Of a DNA stretch of 64,000 nucleotides, positions 46,472-56,200 are shown in pieces; position 1 is the first letter of the stretch, and the number at the start of each line of letters is the position of its first letter. The notes under the pieces were generated by a model, which saw only the letters and a list, made by a program, of their open reading frames with translations, searched no databases and was not told where the DNA came from. Location of the stretch: the NCBI RefSeq assembly GCF_009914755.1, contig NC_060935.1. One strand, written 5' to 3'. The position numbers and the translations under genes were made by a program. Source of the stretch: the human T2T-CHM13v2.0 reference genome, Homo sapiens.

Positions 46472-47339
46472 AAAAGATAAAATACCAGCACATGAATAAC
46501 AGACCTGCAAGGTAAAGAGTGAGAAGCAAAGAAAGGAAGGAGACACAGCTAGCACTTTCAGAAAAAGAAGTGAGTAAATATAATTATTGAAAATTAAGGG
46601 AAGATTTTAGAATGAAATGTCATTTAAATAGGCTCATTTGTGAAAGAAGAGGTTTGGTGAAAAAATATGTTTCTGAAAATGATCTATTTTGAGAACAATC
46701 ACCCTATGCTGTATTGATTTTGCTAACTTTTTCAGACACATGATCAACTTTCCCTCCAGCAGCATTTGATAATTTTTACCCTAGAATGAGGTTGCATTCA
46801 TTTCTTCACAATATAGAGAAAATAATATTACAAATGCCTACACATTTTATTTCTATTTACCTTTCTTATATTGCTAGAGAAATTGAAATTTCTTATGTGT
46901 GAATTGATCACTTGCATTTCTTTTTAGTGAATTTATTTGTTGTGGCATTTTCCACAATAATATTTTATATCGATTTCCCCCAAAATTTATCTGCACACTT
47001 AACACTGTGAATAGTAGATTAACAGTGGGAGAAAATATCTGATGTTCTCTTTAAGTTCAATTCTATTATGTCCTAGTAGTAACTTTTCATTTTGGAGATA
47101 TCTGCACTTAAATTATTACTTAAATCGTCTTTTTTATGTGCTTCGTGGTATAGCTGACATTGTTTTATTTTAAGGCGTTTGGATGTTGATTTCCTATTCT
47201 CAGGTTGCACGTTACATAATAGGCATGCAATTGGCCAACAAAATAAATATTCTCTCTATATCATGGAGATCATAGTATAGTGGGAGAGATGGATGTTTTG
47301 AAAAACACAAAAATATAAAAAGATATTGAATGAGTTTAT

Positions 47340-47860
47340 AGAGTAGAGGGACATGATTCAATTTATGATTTAAGAGTATTATCTCATCAATGTATAAAAA
47401 TAATATCTGACTTGAGAAAGTGGGTAGATGGCAATGCCATTTATTGAAAAGGAAAAAAGTGGTTGGCGAGTTAGGAAACAGATGAATACATTTAGATAGA
47501 AGAATCAGAACTCTCATTTGGATCTGTTGAATTTTAATTGCTCATAGGGCATCCAAGTAAATAGAGTAAGCTGCTGGATACATAAATATGGAATGCAGTA
47601 CTGGTATTTGTTCTGGGATGTAATTTGAGAGTCAATAGCATAAAGATGTTCCTTACATTCATAGAAATGTGATATACTATATGGCAGTCAAGGTGAGGCT
47701 TAATGAAGGAAGAGGACCCAACAAAAGATAAATAGTAAAAGAGGTGAGAGGAAAACCAGTAAAGAATGGTATTCCAGAAGTATGGAGAAGATTTTCAAGA
47801 AGGAAGAATTGGTTCTAGGCAAATTATTTTTGAGAGTTTGAGTAAGGTTTGCTGTTGGAG
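47340..47860 (-). mobile_element. L2 fragment
   Basis: 'gggtagatggcaatgccatttattga...gggcatccaagt...atttgagagtcaatagcataaagatg'. Confidence 0.6.
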
Positions 47861-47904
47861 GAAAAAAATGGTGATGTTTGCTTCTCTCCCCACCAAATTC
47901 AAAT

Positions 47905-49070
47905 TTGAACTATTTATAAGGTATAGGCAAATGCATGAATCACAAATATGCAGTATGATGAATTTTCAAAAACTGAACTCACCCATATAATCAGCACACA
48001 GATTAAGAAACAGAGTATTGCCATCATCTGAGTGGCCTGCTTTGTACCTCTTTCTGGTGACTGTCCTACCCAAGGATGACCACAATCCTGATTCTAACAC
48101 GACCAGTTTGCCTTTCCTGTTTTTGAACTTTATATAATTTTAATTATATACTACGTATTTTTGAGTACACCTTCTTTTGTGCAATATTATAATGTGAAAT
48201 TTATCCATGGTGTTACATAAATAGAATTTGTTCATTATCATTGTTAAATACATTTTCACTCCCTGAATATTATTGACTGAATGTTTATTTCCCTCCAAAA
48301 TTCATAGGTAGAAGCCCTAACACCCAATGTATTGGTATTTGGAAGTGGGATCTTTGGGAGACAATTAGCTTTAGATGACATTCATGAGGGTAGGGCTCCC
48401 ATGATGGGAGTAGTGTCCTTCTAGAAAGTGTGAGAGAGGCCACAGCTTTCTCTTCTTCTGCCATGTGAGGGCACAGTGAGAAGACAGCCATCTTCTCCAG
48501 ACTTCTTCCTGGTGAGGAAGAGCACCCTCTTCAGGAATCAAATCTGATAGCATCATGGACCTCCCAGTCTCCAGAACTGTGGGAAATAAATGTTGTTTAA
48601 GCCATCCAGTCCATGCTATTTGTTATAGCAGCCCGAGCGGACTAATACAGTGAATATATCACAATTTTAGGTATGTTTTCTGAAGAGTAATTTCCAATGA
48701 GGTACTATTCTGCATACTGCTATTATGAATAACTTTGCATATTTATTTTAGGAAATATATATATACACAAACACTATTCTGTTAGTATATACATAGGAAT
48801 GGAATTGTGGGTCATAGAGTAGATATATGTTTAGCATTAGCAAATATTTAGAAACAATCTAAATCTATTTGTACCAATTTATATGCCCAAGTCAATATGT
48901 GAGAGTACCACACGTTCAAATACTAGCCAACCCTTGGCTAGTCTTTTCCATTTTGACATTATAGTGGGTGTGTATTGGTATATAATTTTAATTTTATTAT
49001 ACATTTTGATGATTACTAATAATGTTGAGATATCTTTTATCTACTTAGTATTTGGATATATATATGGGTT
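47905..49070 (-). mobile_element. L1ME/MC 3' end split by an MLT1A LTR
   Basis: Antisense L1ME 3'UTR at 47905-48267 continues at 48650-49070. Confidence 0.7.
48268..48649 (+). mobile_element. MLT1A-family solo LTR
   Basis: Ends 'gttatagcagcccgagcggactaataca'; TSD ctgaa/gtgaa. Confidence 0.88.
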
Positions 49071-49509
49071 GCTGTTTTGGTTTCAATGTTGCTGACTTTA
49101 ATACTGTTAATCAGTACACATTGGAGAGTGAATCAGAAATGTAGATGACTATTTCACATACTCAGTGGGTCTTTCTGGAGTTGTGCTTCCATTGGTTTAT
49201 TCATTGTATTCTAAGGATTCCCTTGAATTTGTGCATACAGTGTCAACATTCATCCGAGAAGTATGGAAAATATATAGAATATAATTTTATTGAAAAAAAT
49301 GTATTAAAACAATTAACGAAAACAAGAACCTGAGTTAAAACTCTTTAATTGAAGCTTTTGAAATAATATTTTCCTAAATATCATCTAATTACATCTAACA
49401 CATAGAAGTAAATTATATTTAAAAAGAAGTTTGAAGAGTTAAGCCCCAAAAATCATTCTTAAAAGTTTGAATCACTGGCATGTAACCTAAATTTCCAAAA
49501 TGTCAGAAA

Positions 49510-49618
49510 AATAGATACAGAATAATTTAGGTATAATTATGGTATACCTAAATAAGTATGAAATATCTAAATATATTTAGGTATACCATAATTATACCTT
49601 AATTATGCTGTATTTATT
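49510..49618. repeat. Inverted repeat with 45-bp arms (42/45 paired) and a 19-nt spacer
   Basis: 49510-49554 is the reverse complement of 49574-49618 with 3 mismatches. Confidence 0.92.
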
Positions 49619-49825
49619 ATAATTATGTTAGATAATATTTTAATTATGGTAGATAATATTTTGGATTGAGTGAATATGCAGGTTATCACTTTCTATATAT
49701 CAATGGAAATTTTTTAAATTACAACCTATGAAGGCCTCACAATGAAAATTTTCTAGATTAAATCCATTAGTTCAAGTTTTTCTAATTGTACTGTAAATGA
49801 AATATCTTCTCCATTATCAATCTCG

Positions 49826-50882
49826 CTTTATTTATTTTTAACACTTATTTTAGGTTCAGTGGTACATGTGCAGAGTGTTATATAGGTAAACCCAAGCCAT
49901 GGGGTTTTGTTGTACAGATTATTTTGTCATCCAGGTATTAAGCCTAATATCTATTAGTTATTTTTCCTGATTCTCTCCATCCTTCCACCCTCCACCTTCA
50001 AGTAGGCCACAGTGTCTGTTCTCTCTATGTCCATGTCTTCTCATCATTTGGCTCCCACTTATAAAATGAGAACATACGGTTTTTGGTTTTCTGTTGCTGT
50101 GTTAGTTTGCCAAGGATAATGGCCTCCAGCTCCATCTATGTTCCTTCAAAGGACATGATCTCATTCTTGTTTGTAGCTGCATAGTATTCCATGATGTATA
50201 TGTAGATTTTCTTTATTCAGTATACCATTTATGGGCATTCAGTTTGATTCCATGTCTTTGCTATTGTATCTAGTGCTGCAATGAACATACGCATACATGT
50301 GTCTTTATGATAGAACAATTTATATTCATTTCGGTATAAACGCAGTTATGGGATTGCTAGATCAAATAGTAGTTCTGTTTTTAGATCTTTGAGGAATCGC
50401 CACCCTGCTTTCCACAATGGGTGAACTAATTTACACTCCCACCAACAACATATTAGCATTATTTTTCTCCACAACCCCACCAGCACCTGCTATTTTTTGA
50501 CTTTCAATAATAGCCACAGTGAGATGGTATCTCATTGTGTTTTTGATTTGCATTTTTCTAATGATCAGTGATACTGAGTTTTTCTTTCGTATGTTTTGGT
50601 CACATGTATGTCTTCTTTTGAAAAGTATTCATGTATTTTGCCTATTTTTGGATGGGGTTGTTTGTTTTTATTCTTGTAGCTTTGTTTAAGTTCTGTGTAG
50701 ATGCTGGACATTAGACCTTTGTCAGATGCATAGTTTGAAAAAATTTTCTTCCATTCTTTAGGTTGTCTGTTTATTCTGTTGATAGTTCTTTTACTGTGCA
50801 GCAGCTCTTTAGTTTAATTAGATCCAATTTGTCAATTTTTGCTTTTGTTGCAATTGCTTTTGGTGTGTTTCTCATGAAATCT
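49826..50882 (-). mobile_element. 5'-truncated L1PA13-15-like element
   Basis: 3'UTR 'ggttcagtggtacatgtgcag...ccctccaccttcaagtaggcc'; antisense ORF2 ends at 'ctcatgaaatct'. Confidence 0.93.
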
Positions 50883-51112
50883 GGGTGTGACAGCTGTCAC
50901 CCCACAGATCACCAGTTGACCCCACTGATCACCGTTGATTCGGCTCATCTGGCTAGATGGGTGTCTCCTTCCTTCCTCACCACTCCATGTGTGTCCCTAC
51001 TGAACCTGCGTGTTTGGTTGAAGAGAACAGCCATCCTTGATAGAGGAGGACCAGTCTTCAATAAAGGATATACGAGTGGCTGTGCTTGCCTGCTACAACC
51101 TCCAAACATGCT
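50879..51112 (+). pseudogene. 7SK snRNA (RN7SK) retropseudogene, about nt 14-234, 3'-truncated, with an internal ~20-nt duplication
   Basis: Colinear with 7SK: 'ctgtcacccca', 'gttgattcggct', 'ccttccttcctcaccactccatgtg', 'gatagaggaggaccagtcttc', 'tatacgagt', 'cctgctacaacctccaaaca'. Confidence 0.95.
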
Positions 51113-51808
51113 ATTAGTCTTGTGAATAAAGGGATGAGCCATATAACTAGACGCTGAGAAAGACCAGAACAGTGCTGGTTTAGAAACGGAGGACCACTGC
51201 ATTCTTAGTTCATGTTTGGAAAGTGCTTTCAAAAAATTTCAAGTACTTGGATGATCTTTAGATGCCATTGCTTTGAAATAATCTTTATTTTATAGCACAA
51301 ATAAAATATAACACCCCCATTGAATATCTATGTCCCGTTATCTCTGATAGATTTCCATAGGTATAAACCTTTAATCTGAAGGTCACACAAGGCTTGGGAA
51401 AATACCATCATCAAGGGTCAGGTGAGTATATTGTATATTTTTAATTGCATAGTTCGAGTCACAGATGCAGATGTACAAAATTTGGTCAGATAATTTTCTG
51501 AAGATTTTCTAAATCTTGAATTTTCTCAAGATTGGACAGGACTTTGGGTTAATTAATAATTTATCAGAATAGCACATTGCACATAATTTACCCAGGCTTA
51601 TATATTCTCTAAAATATATAAAATTAATTCAAAATAAAATGTTTTAGTCAAATACAACTTTACTTTCCACCATAATTTTACAATGAAATGTTATTATATT
51701 TTAACTTAAGAGCTTGGGCTCAGCTTCAGTAGGCCTGTTATGGCATTGTTTAACTCCCCCACAGCCTTAAATACTACAGGAATAAGTAGGAATTTTCAAG
51801 GGTTTTAA

Positions 51809-52123
<315 letters not shown>

Positions 52124-52680
52124 GGTTTTAGCTATTCTTTCATTCCCTGTACAAAACAACACAAAGACACATCCTGCCACTGACATATTCTGGCCTGGGC
52201 CAAATGTAGGATTATTGGGTTGTCTGAACAGTCTCAGCCTCCCAGGGCAGTAAAGTTTTCTTAAAAAAGAGAGCTTGTAGAATGGGTTTGCCCACAACTC
52301 ACTGCAAAATCTCAGGCGATTTGGCAACTTTTTAAAGGTAAAATATGTTCTGATCCATTTTGTTACTTGCTCGGGGGCAGCAATGAAACACCAGAGGTGG
52401 TATCCTGTTATGACCCTTCTGCCTACAGTATTTTCAATATTAATATCTAATGGTGGGTATCTTATTTCATTTGAGACACCAAGGGTCAGATTCCTCTATT
52501 TACTTATGGACATATTAAGCAACAATAATGCAGGCAAGCATAATTTTAAAATAAAGAGTGATTTTATAAAAGTAATTTTGAATTTCTTTTTTTCTTTTTT
52601 TCCTAGATGACCATATTTTTTATTTTAAAAAATAGAAATAATACTTTTAAAATGGTGAACAATTCTTTTACATATATATA

Positions 52681-52839
52681 TATTTTTATTATACTTTAAG
52701 TTCTAGGGTATGTATGTACAACATGCAGGTTTGTTACACATGTATACATGTGCCATGTTGGTGTGCTGCACCCATTAACTAGTCATTTACAGTAGGTATA
52801 TCTCCTAATGCTATCCCTCCAACCTCCCCCCAACTCCAC
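52681..52839 (-). mobile_element. Short L1PA4/5-like 3' end
   Basis: 'ttattatactttaagttctagggta...gccatgttggtgtgctgcacccattaact...ctcctaatgctatccctcc'. Confidence 0.9.
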
Positions 52840-53236
52840 TTTTTATGTTCTTTTTTCTTCTTGCTATAGATCTAATTTATTTTCTGAGAAGGTCCATACA
52901 GAGATTTACTATCCCTTGCTTTAGGAACAGTTGTCATAGTTTATTAAACCCATTTATTTTCTACCAAAAGGAAGATATGTCTAATGGCATATAAAACCAT
53001 TCAATGAGTACTTCATAATATGAGTGAAAGGTGAGAATTCTTTGTATTAATAAACAATACATCTTAGGAAAGCTTAAAAATATTAAAATAGATGAAAATA
53101 AGTGATGTATAGAAACATATTTTAGGTCAATAACAATCTAAATACTATATTTATTTATTAATTATGTACCAGTATACCCAGTTTCAGAATGGTTGTAAAG
53201 TTAATTTTTTTATATAGCAGCAGCAGCAACATTATT

Positions 53237-56200
53237 ATTTTTTTAACTTTTAGGTTTAGGGGTACATGTACAGGATTGTTATATAAGTAAACTACCTGTC
53301 ACTGGGGTTTAGTATACAGATTATTTAGTCACGTAGGTAATAAGCATAGTACCTGATAGGTTTATTATTATTTTTTTGATCCTCTCACTCCTCACGCCCT
53401 CCACCTACAACTAGGCTGCAATGTCTTTTGTTCCCCTCTTTGTGTTCTCATTGTTTAGCTCCCACCTATAAATGAGAACATACAGTATATGGTTTTCTGT
53501 TCCTGTGTTGGTTTTCTCAGGATAATGGTCTCCAGCTTCATCCATGTTGCTGCAAAGGACATGGTCTCTTTCTTTCTAATGGCTGTGTAGTATTACATGG
53601 TGTATATGCATCATATTTTTTAATGCAGTCTACCGTTCATGGGCATTCAGGTTGATTTTTTGTCTTTGCTGTCTTGAATAGTGCTGTAATAAACATACAT
53701 GTGCATGTGTCTTCATGACAGAACAAGTTATATTCTTTTGGGTATATACCCCAAAATGGGATTACTGGGTTGAATAAAAGTTCTGTTTTAAGTTCTTTGA
53801 GAAATTGCCACACTGCTTTCTACAATGGCTGAAATAACTTACTTTCCCACCACCAGTGTATAATAAGTGTTCCTTTTTCTCTGCAACCTCATTAGCATGT
53901 TTTTTTTTTCACTTTTTAATAACGGTCATTCTGACTGGTATGATATAATATGTCATTGTGGTTTTGATTTGCATTTCTCTGATGACTAGTGATGTTGAAC
54001 ATTTTTCATATGCTTGATGGCCACATGTATGTCTTCTTTTGAAAGATGTCTGTTCATGTCATTTGCCCACTTATTAATGGGTTTGTTTGTTTTTTGCTTG
54101 TACATTTATTTATTATAGATTCTGAATATTAGACCTTTGTCAGATGCATAGTTTGCAAATATTTTCTGCCATTCTGTAGGTTTTCTGTTTGTTGATAGTT
54201 TCTTTTGCTGTGCAGAAGCTCTTTAGTTTAATTAGGTAATAATTGCCAATTTTTCTTTTTGTTGCAGTTGCTTTTGACATCTTCATCATGAAATTTTTGC
54301 CAAGTTCTATGCCCAGAATGTTTTTTCCTAGGTTATCTTCCAGGGTTTTTTTTTTTTTTTATAGTTTTAGGTTTTACATTTAAGTCTTTAATTTCTCTTG
54401 AGTTGATTTTTGTATATGACGTAAGGAAGGGGTCCAATTTCAATCTTCTGCCTATGGCTAGCCAGTTATCCTAGCACAGTTTATTGAATAGGGAGTTCTT
54501 TCTCTATTACTAGTTTTTGTCAGCTTTTTCAAAGTTCAGGTGGTTGTAGGTGTGTAGCATTATTTCTGGACTCTGTTCTGATCCATTGGTTTATGTGTCT
54601 ACTTTTCTACCAGTACCATGCTGTTTTGATTACCATAGCCTTGTAGTATAGTTTGTGATTCCTCTACCTTGGTCCTTTTTTCTTAGATTTGTGTTGCCTA
54701 TTTGGACTCTTTTTTGGATCCATATGAATTGTATTTATTGTCCTAATTCTGTGAAGAATGTCACTGGTAGTTTAATAGGAAGAGCATTACATTTATAAAT
54801 GGCTTTATGCAATATGGCCATTTTGATGATATTGATTCTTCCTGTCTATGAGCATGGAATGTTTTTCCACTATTTGTGTCATCTTTGATTTCTCTGAGCA
54901 GTGTTTTAAAATTCTCATTGTGGAGAGCTTTCCTTTTCCTGGTTAGCTATATTCCTAGGCATTTTATTCTTTTTGTGGCAATTGTGAATGGGATTATTTT
55001 CCAGATTTGGCTCTAAACTTAGATGTTCTTGGTTTATAGGAGTGGAACTGACTTTTGCACGTCGATTTTGTATCCCAAAACTTTGCTAAAGTTGTTGGTA
55101 ATTTCAGGGAGCTTTTCTGCAGAGACTATGGGGTTTCTGTGTGTAGAATCATAACATCTACAAACAGGGATGTATATAGCACTAAACGCCCACATTAAAA
55201 AGTTAGAAAGGTCTCCAATTAACAATTTAACATCACATCTAGAGGTAATAGAGAAATAAGGGCAAACCAACTCTAAAGCTAGCAGAAGACAAGAAATAAC
55301 CAAAATCAGAGCTAAACTGAAGGAAATTGAGATGAGAAGAGCTATACAAATAATCAACAAATCTAGGAGTTTGTTAATTGAAAACATTAATAAGATAGAG
55401 TGCTAGCTAGAGTAATAAGGGAAAAAAAAGAGGCATGTTCCAAATAAACACAATCAGAAATGACAAAGGGGATATTACCACCGACCCCAAATAAATACAA
55501 AAATTTCTCAGAGACTACTATAAACAAGTTTTTGAACACAAACTAGAAAAGCTAGAAAAAAATGAATAAATTCCTGGACACATACAACCTCCTAAACTGA
55601 ACCAGAAAGCAATCGAATGTCTTAACCAACCAGTAATGAGTTCCAAAATTGAATCAATAAAACAGCCTACTCACCAAAGAAAGCCAGCACTAGAGGAATT
55701 CACAGCTTAATTCTACCTAGAGATGTATAAAAAAAAGCTGGTACCAATCCTACTGAAACTATTACAAAAAATTGAGGAGGAAGGACTCCTCCATAACTCA
55801 TTCTGTGTGGCCAACATTATCCTGATACCAAAACCTGGCAGAGATGCAACATAAAAGAAAATTTAAGACCAGTATTCTTGATGAATTAAAAATCATCAAC
55901 AAGGTACTATAAAACCGAATCCAGCAGCACATTAGAAAGCTAATGCATCATGATCAAGTAGACTTCATTCCTGGGACATAAGGTTGGTTCAACATTTGCC
56001 AATCAATAAATGTCATTCATCACATCAACAGAACTAAAAAAAAAACCAGATTATTTCAGTAGGTGCAAGAATGGCTTTTGATAAAATTTTACATCCCTGC
56101 ATGTTAAAAACCCTCAATATACTAGGCAATAAAGAAACTTACTTCTAAATAATAAGAGCCATCTATGACAAACCCACAACCAGGATCATACTGAATGGGT

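What the first reader, a model, noticed from the sequence alone, without database searches (positions are those of the whole stretch)
49815..51122. Head-to-head L1/7SK chimera: candidate twin priming on two different RNAs
Seen: an antisense 5'-truncated L1PA13-15 (3' tail at ~49826) ends at 'catgaaATCT', and a sense 7SK copy starts at 'ATCTgggtgtgac' (7SK nt ~14). There are no spacer bases and ATCT (50879-50882) is shared by both. The 7SK copy stops at nt ~234 with no poly(A). A degenerate direct repeat brackets the whole unit: tatcaatctcg (49815-49825) and tattagtcttg (51112-51122), 8/11 identical with transitions only. Established: canonical U6/L1 chimeras are co-oriented, while L1 twin priming gives two opposite cDNAs joined by microhomology. 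Inference: a single insertion in which one nick primed the L1 poly(A) and the other primed internally on a 7SK RNA. That would be a fossil of 7SK being present at an L1 integration site. From memory, opposite-orientation chimeras have been noted for U6; I cannot verify whether this has been described for 7SK.
Basis: partly seen in the sequence, partly recalled or inferred. Interest (0 to 1): 0.8.

Follow-up and report, generated by a model that had tools for sequence, protein, structure and literature searches.

The report
Inverted 7SK/L1 chimeric retrocopy fossil
An old L1 fragment and a piece of 7SK RNA sit head to head in a CNTN5 intron, most likely from one retrotransposition event, and this kind of L1/small-RNA chimera is already in print, so the locus is an unlisted example, not a new phenomenon.

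Summary
An antisense, 5'-truncated L1 3' end (49826-50882) abuts a sense 7SK copy (nt 14 to 234-239; 50879-51112/51117). There is no spacer, and both parents carry the 4 nt ATCT at the junction. The 7SK part has no poly(A), and nothing beyond 51113 is 7SK, so RefSeq's RN7SKP53 span is over-extended.

Single-event twin priming is the best explanation (about 0.8):
- Neither element continues beyond the other.
- Divergence is similar: L1 11.3%, 7SK non-CpG 12.6%.
- The 7SK 3' end lies at the loop site where stand-alone tailless 7SK retrocopies end.
- The left repeat copy matches that 7SK site 5/6.

The 8/11 flanking repeat is weak alone (P about 0.1 with positional slack). The L1 endonuclease motif is absent. 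Orthologues could not be examined.

The idea is not new. Doucet 2015 proposed twin priming for inverted snRNA/L1 chimeras. Law and Burns 2026 list three antisense 7SK/L1 chimeras spanning 7SK 10-15 to 235-238, and this locus is not among them. I re-read two of them in this genome: 7SK starts at nt 16 and nt 13, and both end at nt 239.

Verdict: a new member of a known kind.

The parts
49815..49825 (+). Left copy of the candidate 11-bp target-site duplication (TATCAATCTCG). It ends where the L1 tail begins.
   Evidence: 8/11 identical to 51112-51122, with 3 transition differences. P=0.106 with positional slack, 0.005 at the exact positions. Its first six bases match 7SK nt 234-239 (TCTCAA) at 5/6 (read).
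49826..49839 (-). Decayed L1 poly(A) tail, T-rich on the plus strand (CTTTATTTATTTTT).
   Evidence: One search gives the sequence. In one search, alignments of L1 relatives run to query positions 1048-1057, that is window 49835-49826.
49840..50882 (-). 5'-truncated L1 3' end (ORF2 3' part plus 3' UTR), antisense to the plus strand.
   Evidence: 40 genomic L1 copies at 78-82% identity; homology stops at 50880-50882 in 8 of 9 relatives (50878 in one); 117/1034 (11.3%) differences from the column majority of its 9 closest relatives.
50879..50882 (.). ATCT microhomology, shared by the L1 5' end and 7SK nt 14-17.
   Evidence: L1 relatives read AAAGATTTCATGA (5 of 9) and 7SK antisense reads CCAGATCGCC. 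P(4 nt or more by chance) = 0.016.
50879..51112 (+). 7SK retrocopy, nt 14 to 234, no poly(A). It carries a 17-nt internal tandem duplication at 50916-50932 and a 4-nt deletion.
   Evidence: BLAST nt 34-234, 81% identity, E=3e-47; alignment from nt 14. Overall 17.1% diverged; 23/183 (12.6%) at non-CpG sites and 14/34 at CpG sites.
51112..51122 (+). Right copy of the candidate target-site duplication (TATTAGTCTTG). Its first 6 nt overlap the register of 7SK nt 234-239, which is the presumed priming overlap.
   Evidence: nothing from 51113 onward is 7SK.

Best explanation
This is one L1-mediated insertion that copied two RNAs, that is, twin priming on heterologous templates.

Proposed steps:
1. 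The plus-strand nick after ...TATCAATCTCG primed reverse transcription on the poly(A) of an L1 RNA. This gave the antisense L1 cDNA (49826-50882).
2. The staggered nick on the other strand, 11 bp away, exposed a 3' end (...TTGATA-3'). This end paired with UCUCAA (nt 234-239) in the apical loop of the third 7SK hairpin, or at the 3' end of a 7SK RNA already cut there. It primed a 7SK cDNA back towards the RNA 5' end.
3. The two cDNA ends annealed through AGAT/ATCT (7SK nt 14-17). Flaps were trimmed and the gaps filled.

The product is an 11-bp duplication flanking an inverted 7SK (nt 14-239) joined to a 5'-truncated L1.

Shown: the anatomy, the microhomology, the equal divergence, the canonical 7SK end, and the recurrence elsewhere. 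Inferred: the single event, the order of steps, and the pairing at the priming site. The element has no evident present function. It is a fossil whose roughly 11-13% divergence suggests an age of some tens of millions of years (calibration recalled, not computed).
For: - Head-to-head abutment with no spacer and a 4-nt overlap that belongs to both parents. Chance of 4 nt or more is 0.016.
- The L1 does not resume beyond the 7SK. No 7SK nt 1-13 or other 7SK remnant lies beyond the L1 within about 3 kb on either side. Simple nesting is therefore excluded.
- Similar age: L1 11.3% (117/1034) against 7SK non-CpG 12.6% (23/183, 95% CI 8.1-18.3%). Fisher P=0.62.
- The 7SK 3' end is the canonical tailless end. 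27 of the 40 best genomic 7SK hits end at nt 237-247, 24 of them at 237-241. In the 17 such loci whose flanks I read, none has an A-tail, and by eye about 15 show a direct repeat of 9 nt or more starting at or overlapping the last 7SK bases. Rfam's consensus structure puts nt 233-245 in a 13-nt hairpin loop.
- The left repeat copy lies 1.3 kb from the 7SK but matches 7SK nt 234-239 at 5/6 in the right register. Both repeat copies carry A at position 2 where 7SK has C, as expected if that stretch comes from the primer DNA.
- Recurrence in print: Law and Burns Table S3 lists antisense 7SK/L1 chimeras with 7SK 15-238, 10-235 and 12-238, next to an L1PA7, an L1MA3 and an L1PA7. I re-read two of them in this genome. 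They span nt 16-239 and nt 13-239, and the second shows a GATC overlap at its junction.
- A start at nt 10-17 is not a feature of stand-alone copies. 0 of 99 pseudogene copies examined start there; 8 of the 99 start beyond nt 8, at about nt 20, 23, 36, 60, 119, 142, 146 and 213.
- 7SK RNA and its partners co-purify with L1 RNPs (Goodier 2013, passages).
Against: - The flanking repeat is only 8/11, and an equally good repeat arises in 10.6% of random position pairs given the same slack.
- A rival 7/9 repeat (TCTCATGAA at 50870-78 and TCTTGTGAA at 51118-26) would flank the 7SK alone. It is about as likely by chance (12.5%).
- The first-strand nick site implied by the repeat...TCTCG/TGAA on the nicked strand (TTCA/CGAG in L1 sense), does not resemble the L1 endonuclease consensus TTTT/AA (read; consensus recalled).
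- The right copy of the repeat, which abuts the 7SK part, matches 7SK nt 234-244 at only 4/11.
- No orthologous or paralogous empty site could be examined. Both flanks are unique in this genome.
- The L1 divergence was measured against only 9 relatives that were chosen by similarity to this copy.
- My census saw 100 of the 213 copies that carry the nt 211-234 motif.
Confidence: 0.8

Rival explanations
1. Two independent insertions. A tailless 7SK retrocopy, 5'-truncated at nt 14, landed exactly at the 5' edge of an L1 that was already there. Its own 9-bp duplication (TCTYRTGAA) would then flank only the 7SK.
For: - A 7/9 repeat sits at the right places for this reading: 50870-50878 and 51118-51126.
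- Tailless 7SK retrocopies are common (27 of the 40 best hits).
- 5'-truncated stand-alone copies do exist (8 of 99).
- Similar divergence does not exclude two events that were close in time.
Against: - The 7/9 repeat arises by chance in 12.5% of trials.
- The L1 would have to end precisely at the insertion point, and the next 4 nt of 7SK would have to equal the next 4 nt of L1 by coincidence (about 1/256, or P=0.016 for 4 nt or more).
- No stand-alone copy of the 99 examined starts at nt 10-17, while all three sequence-checked head-to-head chimeras do.
- No separate duplication for the L1 alone was found beside 51127.
Confidence: 0.1
2. The junction was made later by deletion. A longer L1 and a nearby full-length tailless 7SK copy, inserted separately, were brought together by a microhomology-mediated deletion. 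The deletion removed the L1 5' part, the spacer DNA and 7SK nt 1-13.
For: - The 4-nt ATCT overlap is also what a microhomology-mediated deletion would leave.
- The flanking 8/11 repeat is not significant alone.
Against: - The same 7SK break region (nt 13-17) recurs at two other sequence-checked loci with different L1 partners and different L1 break points, and at nt 10 in a third according to the published table. Independent deletions would not converge there.
- The left repeat copy matches the 7SK priming site at 5/6, which this reading leaves unexplained.
- The two parts show equal divergence.
Confidence: 0.06
3. A template switch or RNA ligation produced the chimera, as for U6/L1. The reverse transcriptase jumped from the L1 RNA to 7SK RNA, or a ligated 7SK-L1 RNA was copied.
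For: Chimeras of L1 with small RNAs are commonly made this way (Doucet 2015 passages; Law and Burns section 17 passages; Moldovan 2019 seen only as a search listing and abstract start).
Against: Both routes give co-oriented parts. Here the 7SK is inverted relative to the L1. Its 3' end, not its 5' end, faces the flank.
Confidence: 0.01

Closest known systems
Antisense 7SK/LINE-1 chimeric insertions of Law and Burns 2026 (Cell Genomics, PMC13174262, Table S3 sheet '7SK': hg38 chr2:7141303, chr2:22861554, chr12:57978038)
   Same: - An inverted 7SK fragment spanning nt 10-16 to 235-239 lies directly (0-3 nt) against the 5' end of a 5'-truncated L1.
- There is no poly(A) on the 7SK.
- The candidate duplications are short.
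- The authors propose twin priming for antisense chimeras in general.
- My re-reading of two of these loci gives nt 16-239 and nt 13-239.
   Different: - This chr11 locus is not in their four-row 7SK sheet. No coordinate beginning 99117-99122 occurs in the 4 supplementary files held. My hg38 position estimate rests on a recalled offset.
- Its partner is an older L1 (about 11% diverged).
- Their calls rest on multi-species alignments, which I could not run.
- The passages and section 11 that I read do not discuss the 7SK break points.
Inverted snRNA/L1 chimeras (U5, U1, U2, one U6) explained by twin priming, Doucet et al. 2015 (MBE, PMC4476161)
   Same: - A 3'-truncated small RNA lies in the opposite orientation upstream of a 5'-truncated L1.
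- The truncation falls in a single-stranded loop.
- There is complementarity between the small-RNA segment and the insertion site.
- A duplication flanks the whole unit (passages).
   Different: - The RNA here is 7SK.
- Their cleavage sites fit the L1 endonuclease consensus when read in L1 orientation. Here the implied site does not.
[quoted passage not shown] Seen only as cited and paraphrased; the paper itself was not read.
   Same: Two opposite cDNAs are primed from the two ends of a staggered break and joined at a short microhomology.
   Different: The second template here is a different RNA, not an internal site on the same L1 RNA.
Tailless (3'-truncated, poly(A)-less) ncRNA retropseudogenes, including 7SK (Kojima 2010, PMC2912911, passages)
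   Same: The 7SK 3' end is the same (nt ~234-241), with no A-tail and with the flank or duplication beginning at the RNA end.
   Different: Stand-alone copies almost always reach 7SK nt 1 and carry their own duplication. This copy starts at nt 14 and is fused to an L1.
U6/L1 sense chimeras (template switching or RtcB ligation)
   Same: A small Pol III RNA is fused to the 5' end of a truncated L1 within one insertion.
   Different: U6 is full-length and co-oriented with the L1 (Law and Burns figure legend). Here the RNA is inverted and truncated at both ends.

Membership tests
Inverted small-RNA/L1 chimeric retrocopy (twin-priming type) | 5'-truncated L1 that ends in a poly(A) tail | tested here: met
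   1057 nt of L1 3' end with a decayed 14-nt tail at 49826-39.
Inverted small-RNA/L1 chimeric retrocopy (twin-priming type) | Small-RNA segment directly at the L1 5' end, in the opposite orientation | tested here: met
   7SK is on the plus strand and L1 on the minus strand, with 0-nt spacer and a 4-nt overlap.
Inverted small-RNA/L1 chimeric retrocopy (twin-priming type) | Small RNA is 3'-truncated in a single-stranded region and lacks poly(A) | tested here: met
   The copy ends at nt 234-239. Rfam consensus structure places nt 233-245 in a 13-nt hairpin loop. There is no 7SK homology beyond that point and no A-run.
Inverted small-RNA/L1 chimeric retrocopy (twin-priming type) | Target-site duplication flanking the whole unit | tested here: inconclusive
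   The repeat is 8/11 with transitions only. P=0.106 with slack and 0.005 at the exact positions. A rival 7/9 repeat around the 7SK alone has P=0.125.
Inverted small-RNA/L1 chimeric retrocopy (twin-priming type) | L1 endonuclease consensus at the first-strand nick, read in L1 orientation | tested here: not met
   The implied site is TTCA/CGAG (or TTCA/CAAG), against the recalled consensus TT/AAAA (read). In Law and Burns Table S3, 2 of the 3 antisense 7SK chimeras are also marked 'No' for this motif.
Inverted small-RNA/L1 chimeric retrocopy (twin-priming type) | Complementarity between the insertion site and the small RNA at the priming point | tested here: met
   The first six bases of the left repeat copy, TATCAA, match 7SK nt 234-239 TCTCAA at 5/6. 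By my arithmetic the chance at the exact register is about 0.005.
Inverted small-RNA/L1 chimeric retrocopy (twin-priming type) | Microhomology at the internal junction of the two cDNAs | tested here: met
   ATCT is shared by both parents. P(4 nt or more) = 0.016.
Inverted small-RNA/L1 chimeric retrocopy (twin-priming type) | Both parts arrive on the same branch (orthologous presence or absence) | not testable with these tools
   Only this one genome is on hand, and both flanks are unique within it. As a proxy, the divergences are equal: 11.3% against 12.6%, Fisher P=0.62.
Sense small-RNA/L1 chimera (template switch or RNA ligation, U6/L1 type) | Small RNA co-oriented with the L1 | tested here: not met
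   The orientations are opposite.
Stand-alone tailless 7SK retropseudogene | 7SK from nt 1 to about 240, with its own duplication directly at both ends | tested here: not met
   The copy starts at nt 14 and is fused to L1. 91 of the 99 pseudogene copies examined start at nt 1-8, some read by eye through decayed CpGs. The 7SK-only repeat is 7/9, P=0.125.

The most novel reading that the evidence does not exclude
The break points are not random. In all three inverted 7SK/L1 chimeras that I read base by base (this locus and two published ones), the 7SK part ends at nt 234-239. That lies in the apical loop where tailless 7SK retrocopies also end. In all three the 7SK part joins the L1 within nt 13-17, at an unpaired internal loop near the base of the first hairpin. 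Stand-alone copies run to nt 1.

This would mean that L1 reverse transcriptase meets a defined 7SK species. It could be a loop-cleaved RNA ending near nt 239, with its first dozen nucleotides shielded, for example by the 5' cap-binding proteins of the 7SK particle. The chimeras would then be footprints of a 7SK RNP at L1 integration sites. The passages of Law and Burns that I read do not discuss this.
Probability: 0.3. Interest if true: 0.55.

Novelty: new member of a known kind. Interest (0 to 1): 0.33.

Why it matters
In itself this is one more fossil in an intron with no sign of function. Its value is as a clean example that a published, alignment-based catalogue does not list.

- It shows that the class of inverted 7SK/L1 chimeras is larger than the three loci in print.
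- Together with those loci it points to fixed break points in 7SK: the nt ~239 loop and nt 13-17.
- Those break points could be tested directly with engineered L1 assays or with ORF2p in vitro. Such tests would show which form of 7SK RNA the L1 machinery meets at the integration site.
- It also corrects a gene-table entry. RN7SKP53 is drawn 12 nt too far on its 5' side, into the L1, and about 65-70 nt too far on its 3' side.

Tried and rejected
- 7SK extending to nt 331, as RefSeq and the global cmscan alignment draw it: rejected. cmscan of the flank alone found no 7SK hit at E<=10. Local and anchored alignments of 51113-51212 to nt 235-331 scored no better than shuffles: 887/1000, 953/1000 and 931/1000 at or above the observed score in three local schemes, and 241/500 in the anchored one.
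- L1 inserted into a 7SK copy, or 7SK inserted into an L1: rejected. There is no 7SK remnant in 47000-49830 or 51113-54000 (best E=0.23). No L1 continuation lies beyond the 7SK. The single hit, at about window 51823-52113, coincides with the SRP-like stretch and is probably an Alu shared with a relative's flank.
- Other flanking repeats: a 10/15 match (49788 against 51117) lies 24 nt from the tail and was dropped. No 9/11, 10/13 or 11/15 match exists.
- Paralogous empty site: none. Both flanks hit only themselves.
- Whole-genome census: only partly possible. DNA searches score only 40 candidates, and pattern searches list 100 of 213 and 100 of 128 matches.
- The third published locus (hg38 chr2:22861554) was not found in C2:22878001-22888000, so its 10-235 span is quoted from the table only.
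- The 5' flanks of truncated stand-alone copies were compared only with the last ~2.5 kb of L1 from 9 loci. An L1 5' half next to one of them would have been missed.
- The subfamily name L1PA13-15 was not testable.
Full report
**What is there.**
On the plus strand the region reads, from left to right:
- unique flank;
- TATCAATCTCG (49815-25);
- a T-rich stretch (49826-39);
- antisense L1 (to 50882);
- sense 7SK (from 50879);
- TATTAGTCTTG (51112-22);
- unique flank.

**The L1 part.**
The L1 part, read on the minus strand, matches 40 other L1 3' ends in this genome over nearly its full 1057 nt at 78-82% identity. I extended the query 78 nt into the 7SK part and compared it with 9 of those relatives. 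The alignments stopped at window 50882 in five relatives, at 50880 in three and at 50878 in one.

**The 7SK part.**
- The real 7SK gene was recovered from the same assembly (L001:1501-1831). Against it the copy aligns from nt 14 to nt 234.
- It carries a 17-nt internal duplication (50916-50932) and a 4-nt deletion.
- Beyond 51112 there is no 7SK. cmscan of 51105-51400 alone finds none at E<=10. Alignment of 51113-51212 to nt 235-331 scores below most shuffles: 887 of 1000 reach the observed score, and the anchored extension is reached by 241 of 500.
- The RefSeq span for RN7SKP53 (50867-51181) nearly matches the forced global alignment of the Rfam model (50861-51181). It is over-extended at both ends.

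**The junction.**
Five of the 9 L1 relatives read ...GGCAAAGATTTCATGA... at this point, and the other four differ by one or two bases. 7SK antisense reads ...GCCAGATCGCC... The window reads ...CACCCAGATTTCATGA.... For a random blunt join, an overlap of 4 nt or more is expected in 1.6% of cases.

**Nesting is excluded.**
No 7SK remnant lies in 47000-49830 or in 51113-54000 (best E=0.23). The L1 sequence that precedes the break point in 9 relatives is not found on the far side of the 7SK. The only hit falls on the SRP-like stretch at about 51823-52113 and is probably an Alu.

**Ages.**
- The L1 part differs from the column majority of its 9 closest relatives at 117 of 1034 sites (11.3%).
- The 7SK part differs from the gene at 23 of 183 non-CpG sites (12.6%) and at 14 of 34 CpG sites.
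- The two rates do not differ (Fisher P=0.62).
- This fits one event but does not prove it. The L1 reference is small and was chosen by similarity to this copy.

**The 7SK 3' end is not arbitrary.**
- Of the 40 best genomic matches to the 7SK gene, 27 end at nt 237-247, 24 of them at 237-241. All 40 start at nt 1-4.
- I read the flanks of the 17 such loci that were fetched. None has an A-tail. By eye, about 15 show a direct repeat of 9 nt or more that begins at, or overlaps, the last 7SK bases.
- These are the tailless retropseudogenes that Kojima 2010 reported for 7SK (passages).
- In Rfam's consensus structure, nt 233-245 form a 13-nt hairpin loop.
- The chimera's 7SK therefore stops at the site that L1-mediated copying of 7SK normally starts from.

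**The flanking repeat.**
- The two 11-mers are 8/11 identical and all three differences are transitions. One of them is a CpG-to-TpG change.
- Among 20,000 random pairs of genomic positions, 8/11 or better turns up in 10.6% with plus or minus 3 nt of slack on the left and -3 to +8 nt on the right. At the exact positions it turns up in 0.5%.
- A rival 7/9 repeat (50870-78 against 51118-26) would flank the 7SK alone, and it has a similar chance level of 12.5%. The repeats alone therefore do not decide the question.
- One more detail favours the outer repeat. The first six bases of its left copy (TATCAA), 1.3 kb from the 7SK, match 7SK nt 234-239 (TCTCAA) at 5/6 in exactly the register needed for the minus-strand 3' end to pair with the loop.
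- Both repeat copies carry A at position 2 where 7SK has C. This is expected if that stretch comes from the primer DNA.
- Against the model, the implied first-strand nick (TCTCG/TGAA) is unlike the L1 endonuclease consensus (recalled).

**What is in print.**
- Doucet et al. 2015 described 3'-truncated U5, U1, U2 and one U6 copies inverted upstream of 5'-truncated L1s. They noted truncations in a single-stranded loop and complementarity to the insertion site, and they proposed twin priming on the small RNA (passages).
- Law and Burns 2026 name 7SK among five RNA types newly found in L1 chimeras, and they attribute antisense-biased chimeras to twin priming (passages and section 11).
- Their Table S3 has four 7SK rows. 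Three are antisense, with 7SK 15-238, 10-235 and 12-238, abutting an L1PA7, an L1MA3 and an L1PA7 within 0-3 nt.
- The present locus is not among those rows. No coordinate beginning 99117-99122 occurs in the 4 supplementary files held. My hg38 position estimate rests on a recalled offset.
- Goodier 2013 found 7SK RNA, MEPCE, HEXIM1 and CCNT1 with L1 ORF1p particles, and HEXIM1 as the top two-hybrid partner of the ORF2p endonuclease domain (passages).
- Searches for 7SK with 'twin priming' or 'chimeric', and for 'chimeric retrogenes', gave no other 7SK/L1 chimera paper.

**Re-reading two published loci.**
A motif search located two of the published loci in this assembly, and I fetched them.
- The chr2 locus carries antisense 7SK nt 16-239 joined as ...GCAGCCAG|TTGGGAAAACTGG..., with at most 1 nt of overlap with L1.
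- The chr12 locus carries antisense 7SK nt 13-239 joined as ...CCAGATC|AAGTCAGC... L1 relatives read ...ATGATC|AAGT... there, which gives a 4-nt GATC overlap.
- Both end at nt 239 with no tail.
- The third locus was not found in the 10 kb that I fetched.

**Census of stand-alone copies.**
I examined 99 pseudogene copies. These are the 100 listed matches, out of 213, to a nt 211-234 motif, less the gene itself.
- 91 start at nt 1-8. Several of these were read by eye through decayed CpGs.
- 8 start later, at about nt 20, 23, 36, 60, 119, 142, 146 and 213.
- None starts at nt 10-17.
- The copy starting at about nt 23 (C3:107528583-107529023) is itself abutted by antisense L1 and is not in the published table. 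Its structure is complex and I did not resolve it.

**Conclusion.**
The best reading, at about 0.8, is a single L1-mediated insertion made by twin priming on an L1 RNA and a 7SK RNA. The rivals are an independent 7SK insertion at the L1 edge (about 0.1), a later deletion (about 0.06) and a template switch (excluded by the orientation).

The kind is already described, so this is a new member of it. What may be new is the regularity of the break points. The 3' end lies at the nt ~239 loop and the crossover at nt 13-17 in all three loci read base by base, which points to a defined 7SK substrate. This rests on three loci, plus one table row at nt 10. It needs a full census and bench tests.

Noticed in passing
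window 50867-51181 (gene table) against 50879-51112/51117: The RefSeq span of RN7SKP53 nearly matches the forced global Rfam alignment (50861-51181). It includes 12 nt of L1 on the 5' side and about 65-70 nt of unrelated flank on the 3' side.
   Followed up: yes
window 50916-50932: A 17-nt insertion lies inside the 7SK copy. It repeats the neighbouring ...CCCCAC.GATCACC.GTTGA... unit, so it is a tandem duplication of about 7SK nt 35-54. There is also a 4-nt deletion near nt 69-72. Whether these arose at or after insertion is unknown.
   Followed up: partly
G000:C3:107528583-107529023, minus strand (L101, L144): This is another 7SK copy (nt ~23-233, no tail) whose 5' end abuts antisense L1 sequence. 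An 86-nt piece from about 210-300 nt before the L1 3' end is preceded by a second antisense L1 piece from about 2.1 kb before the 3' end. It is not in the published 7SK sheet. The structure is complex and unresolved.
   Followed up: partly
G000 loci L010-L045: Most 7SK pseudogenes among the best 40 hits are tailless copies spanning nt 1 to 238-241. Their direct repeats begin inside the last few 7SK bases, often AAG or AAA. Full-length copies (to nt 322-331) instead mostly carry A-rich tails.
   Followed up: yes
window 49510-49618: The left flank contains an imperfect palindrome. The stretch matches its own reverse complement at 85% over 109 nt. This probably explains the weak mir-7131-like hit at 49528-49598 (E=0.053, far below the gathering score).
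   Followed up: no
window 51842-52122: Two minus-strand matches to the SRP RNA model fall below the gathering score, with overlapping weak miRNA-family hits. This is the pattern of an Alu element. It coincides with the masked stretch 51806-52125.
   Followed up: no
G000:C2:47364438-47364950 (L064): This is a stand-alone 7SK copy starting at nt 20 and ending at nt 245. Its 5' flank gave no hit to my partial L1 reference. 5'-truncated 7SK copies without an L1 partner therefore do exist.
   Followed up: partly
G000:C12:57946590-57947110 and 57949270-57949510 (L151, L152): At the published chr12 chimera, the 5' flank reads by eye like antisense Alu and the 3' flank like sense Alu (Alu sequence recalled). 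The published 7-bp duplication AAAAATT lies in A/T-rich Alu-derived sequence, with 5 nt between it and the 7SK end.
   Followed up: no
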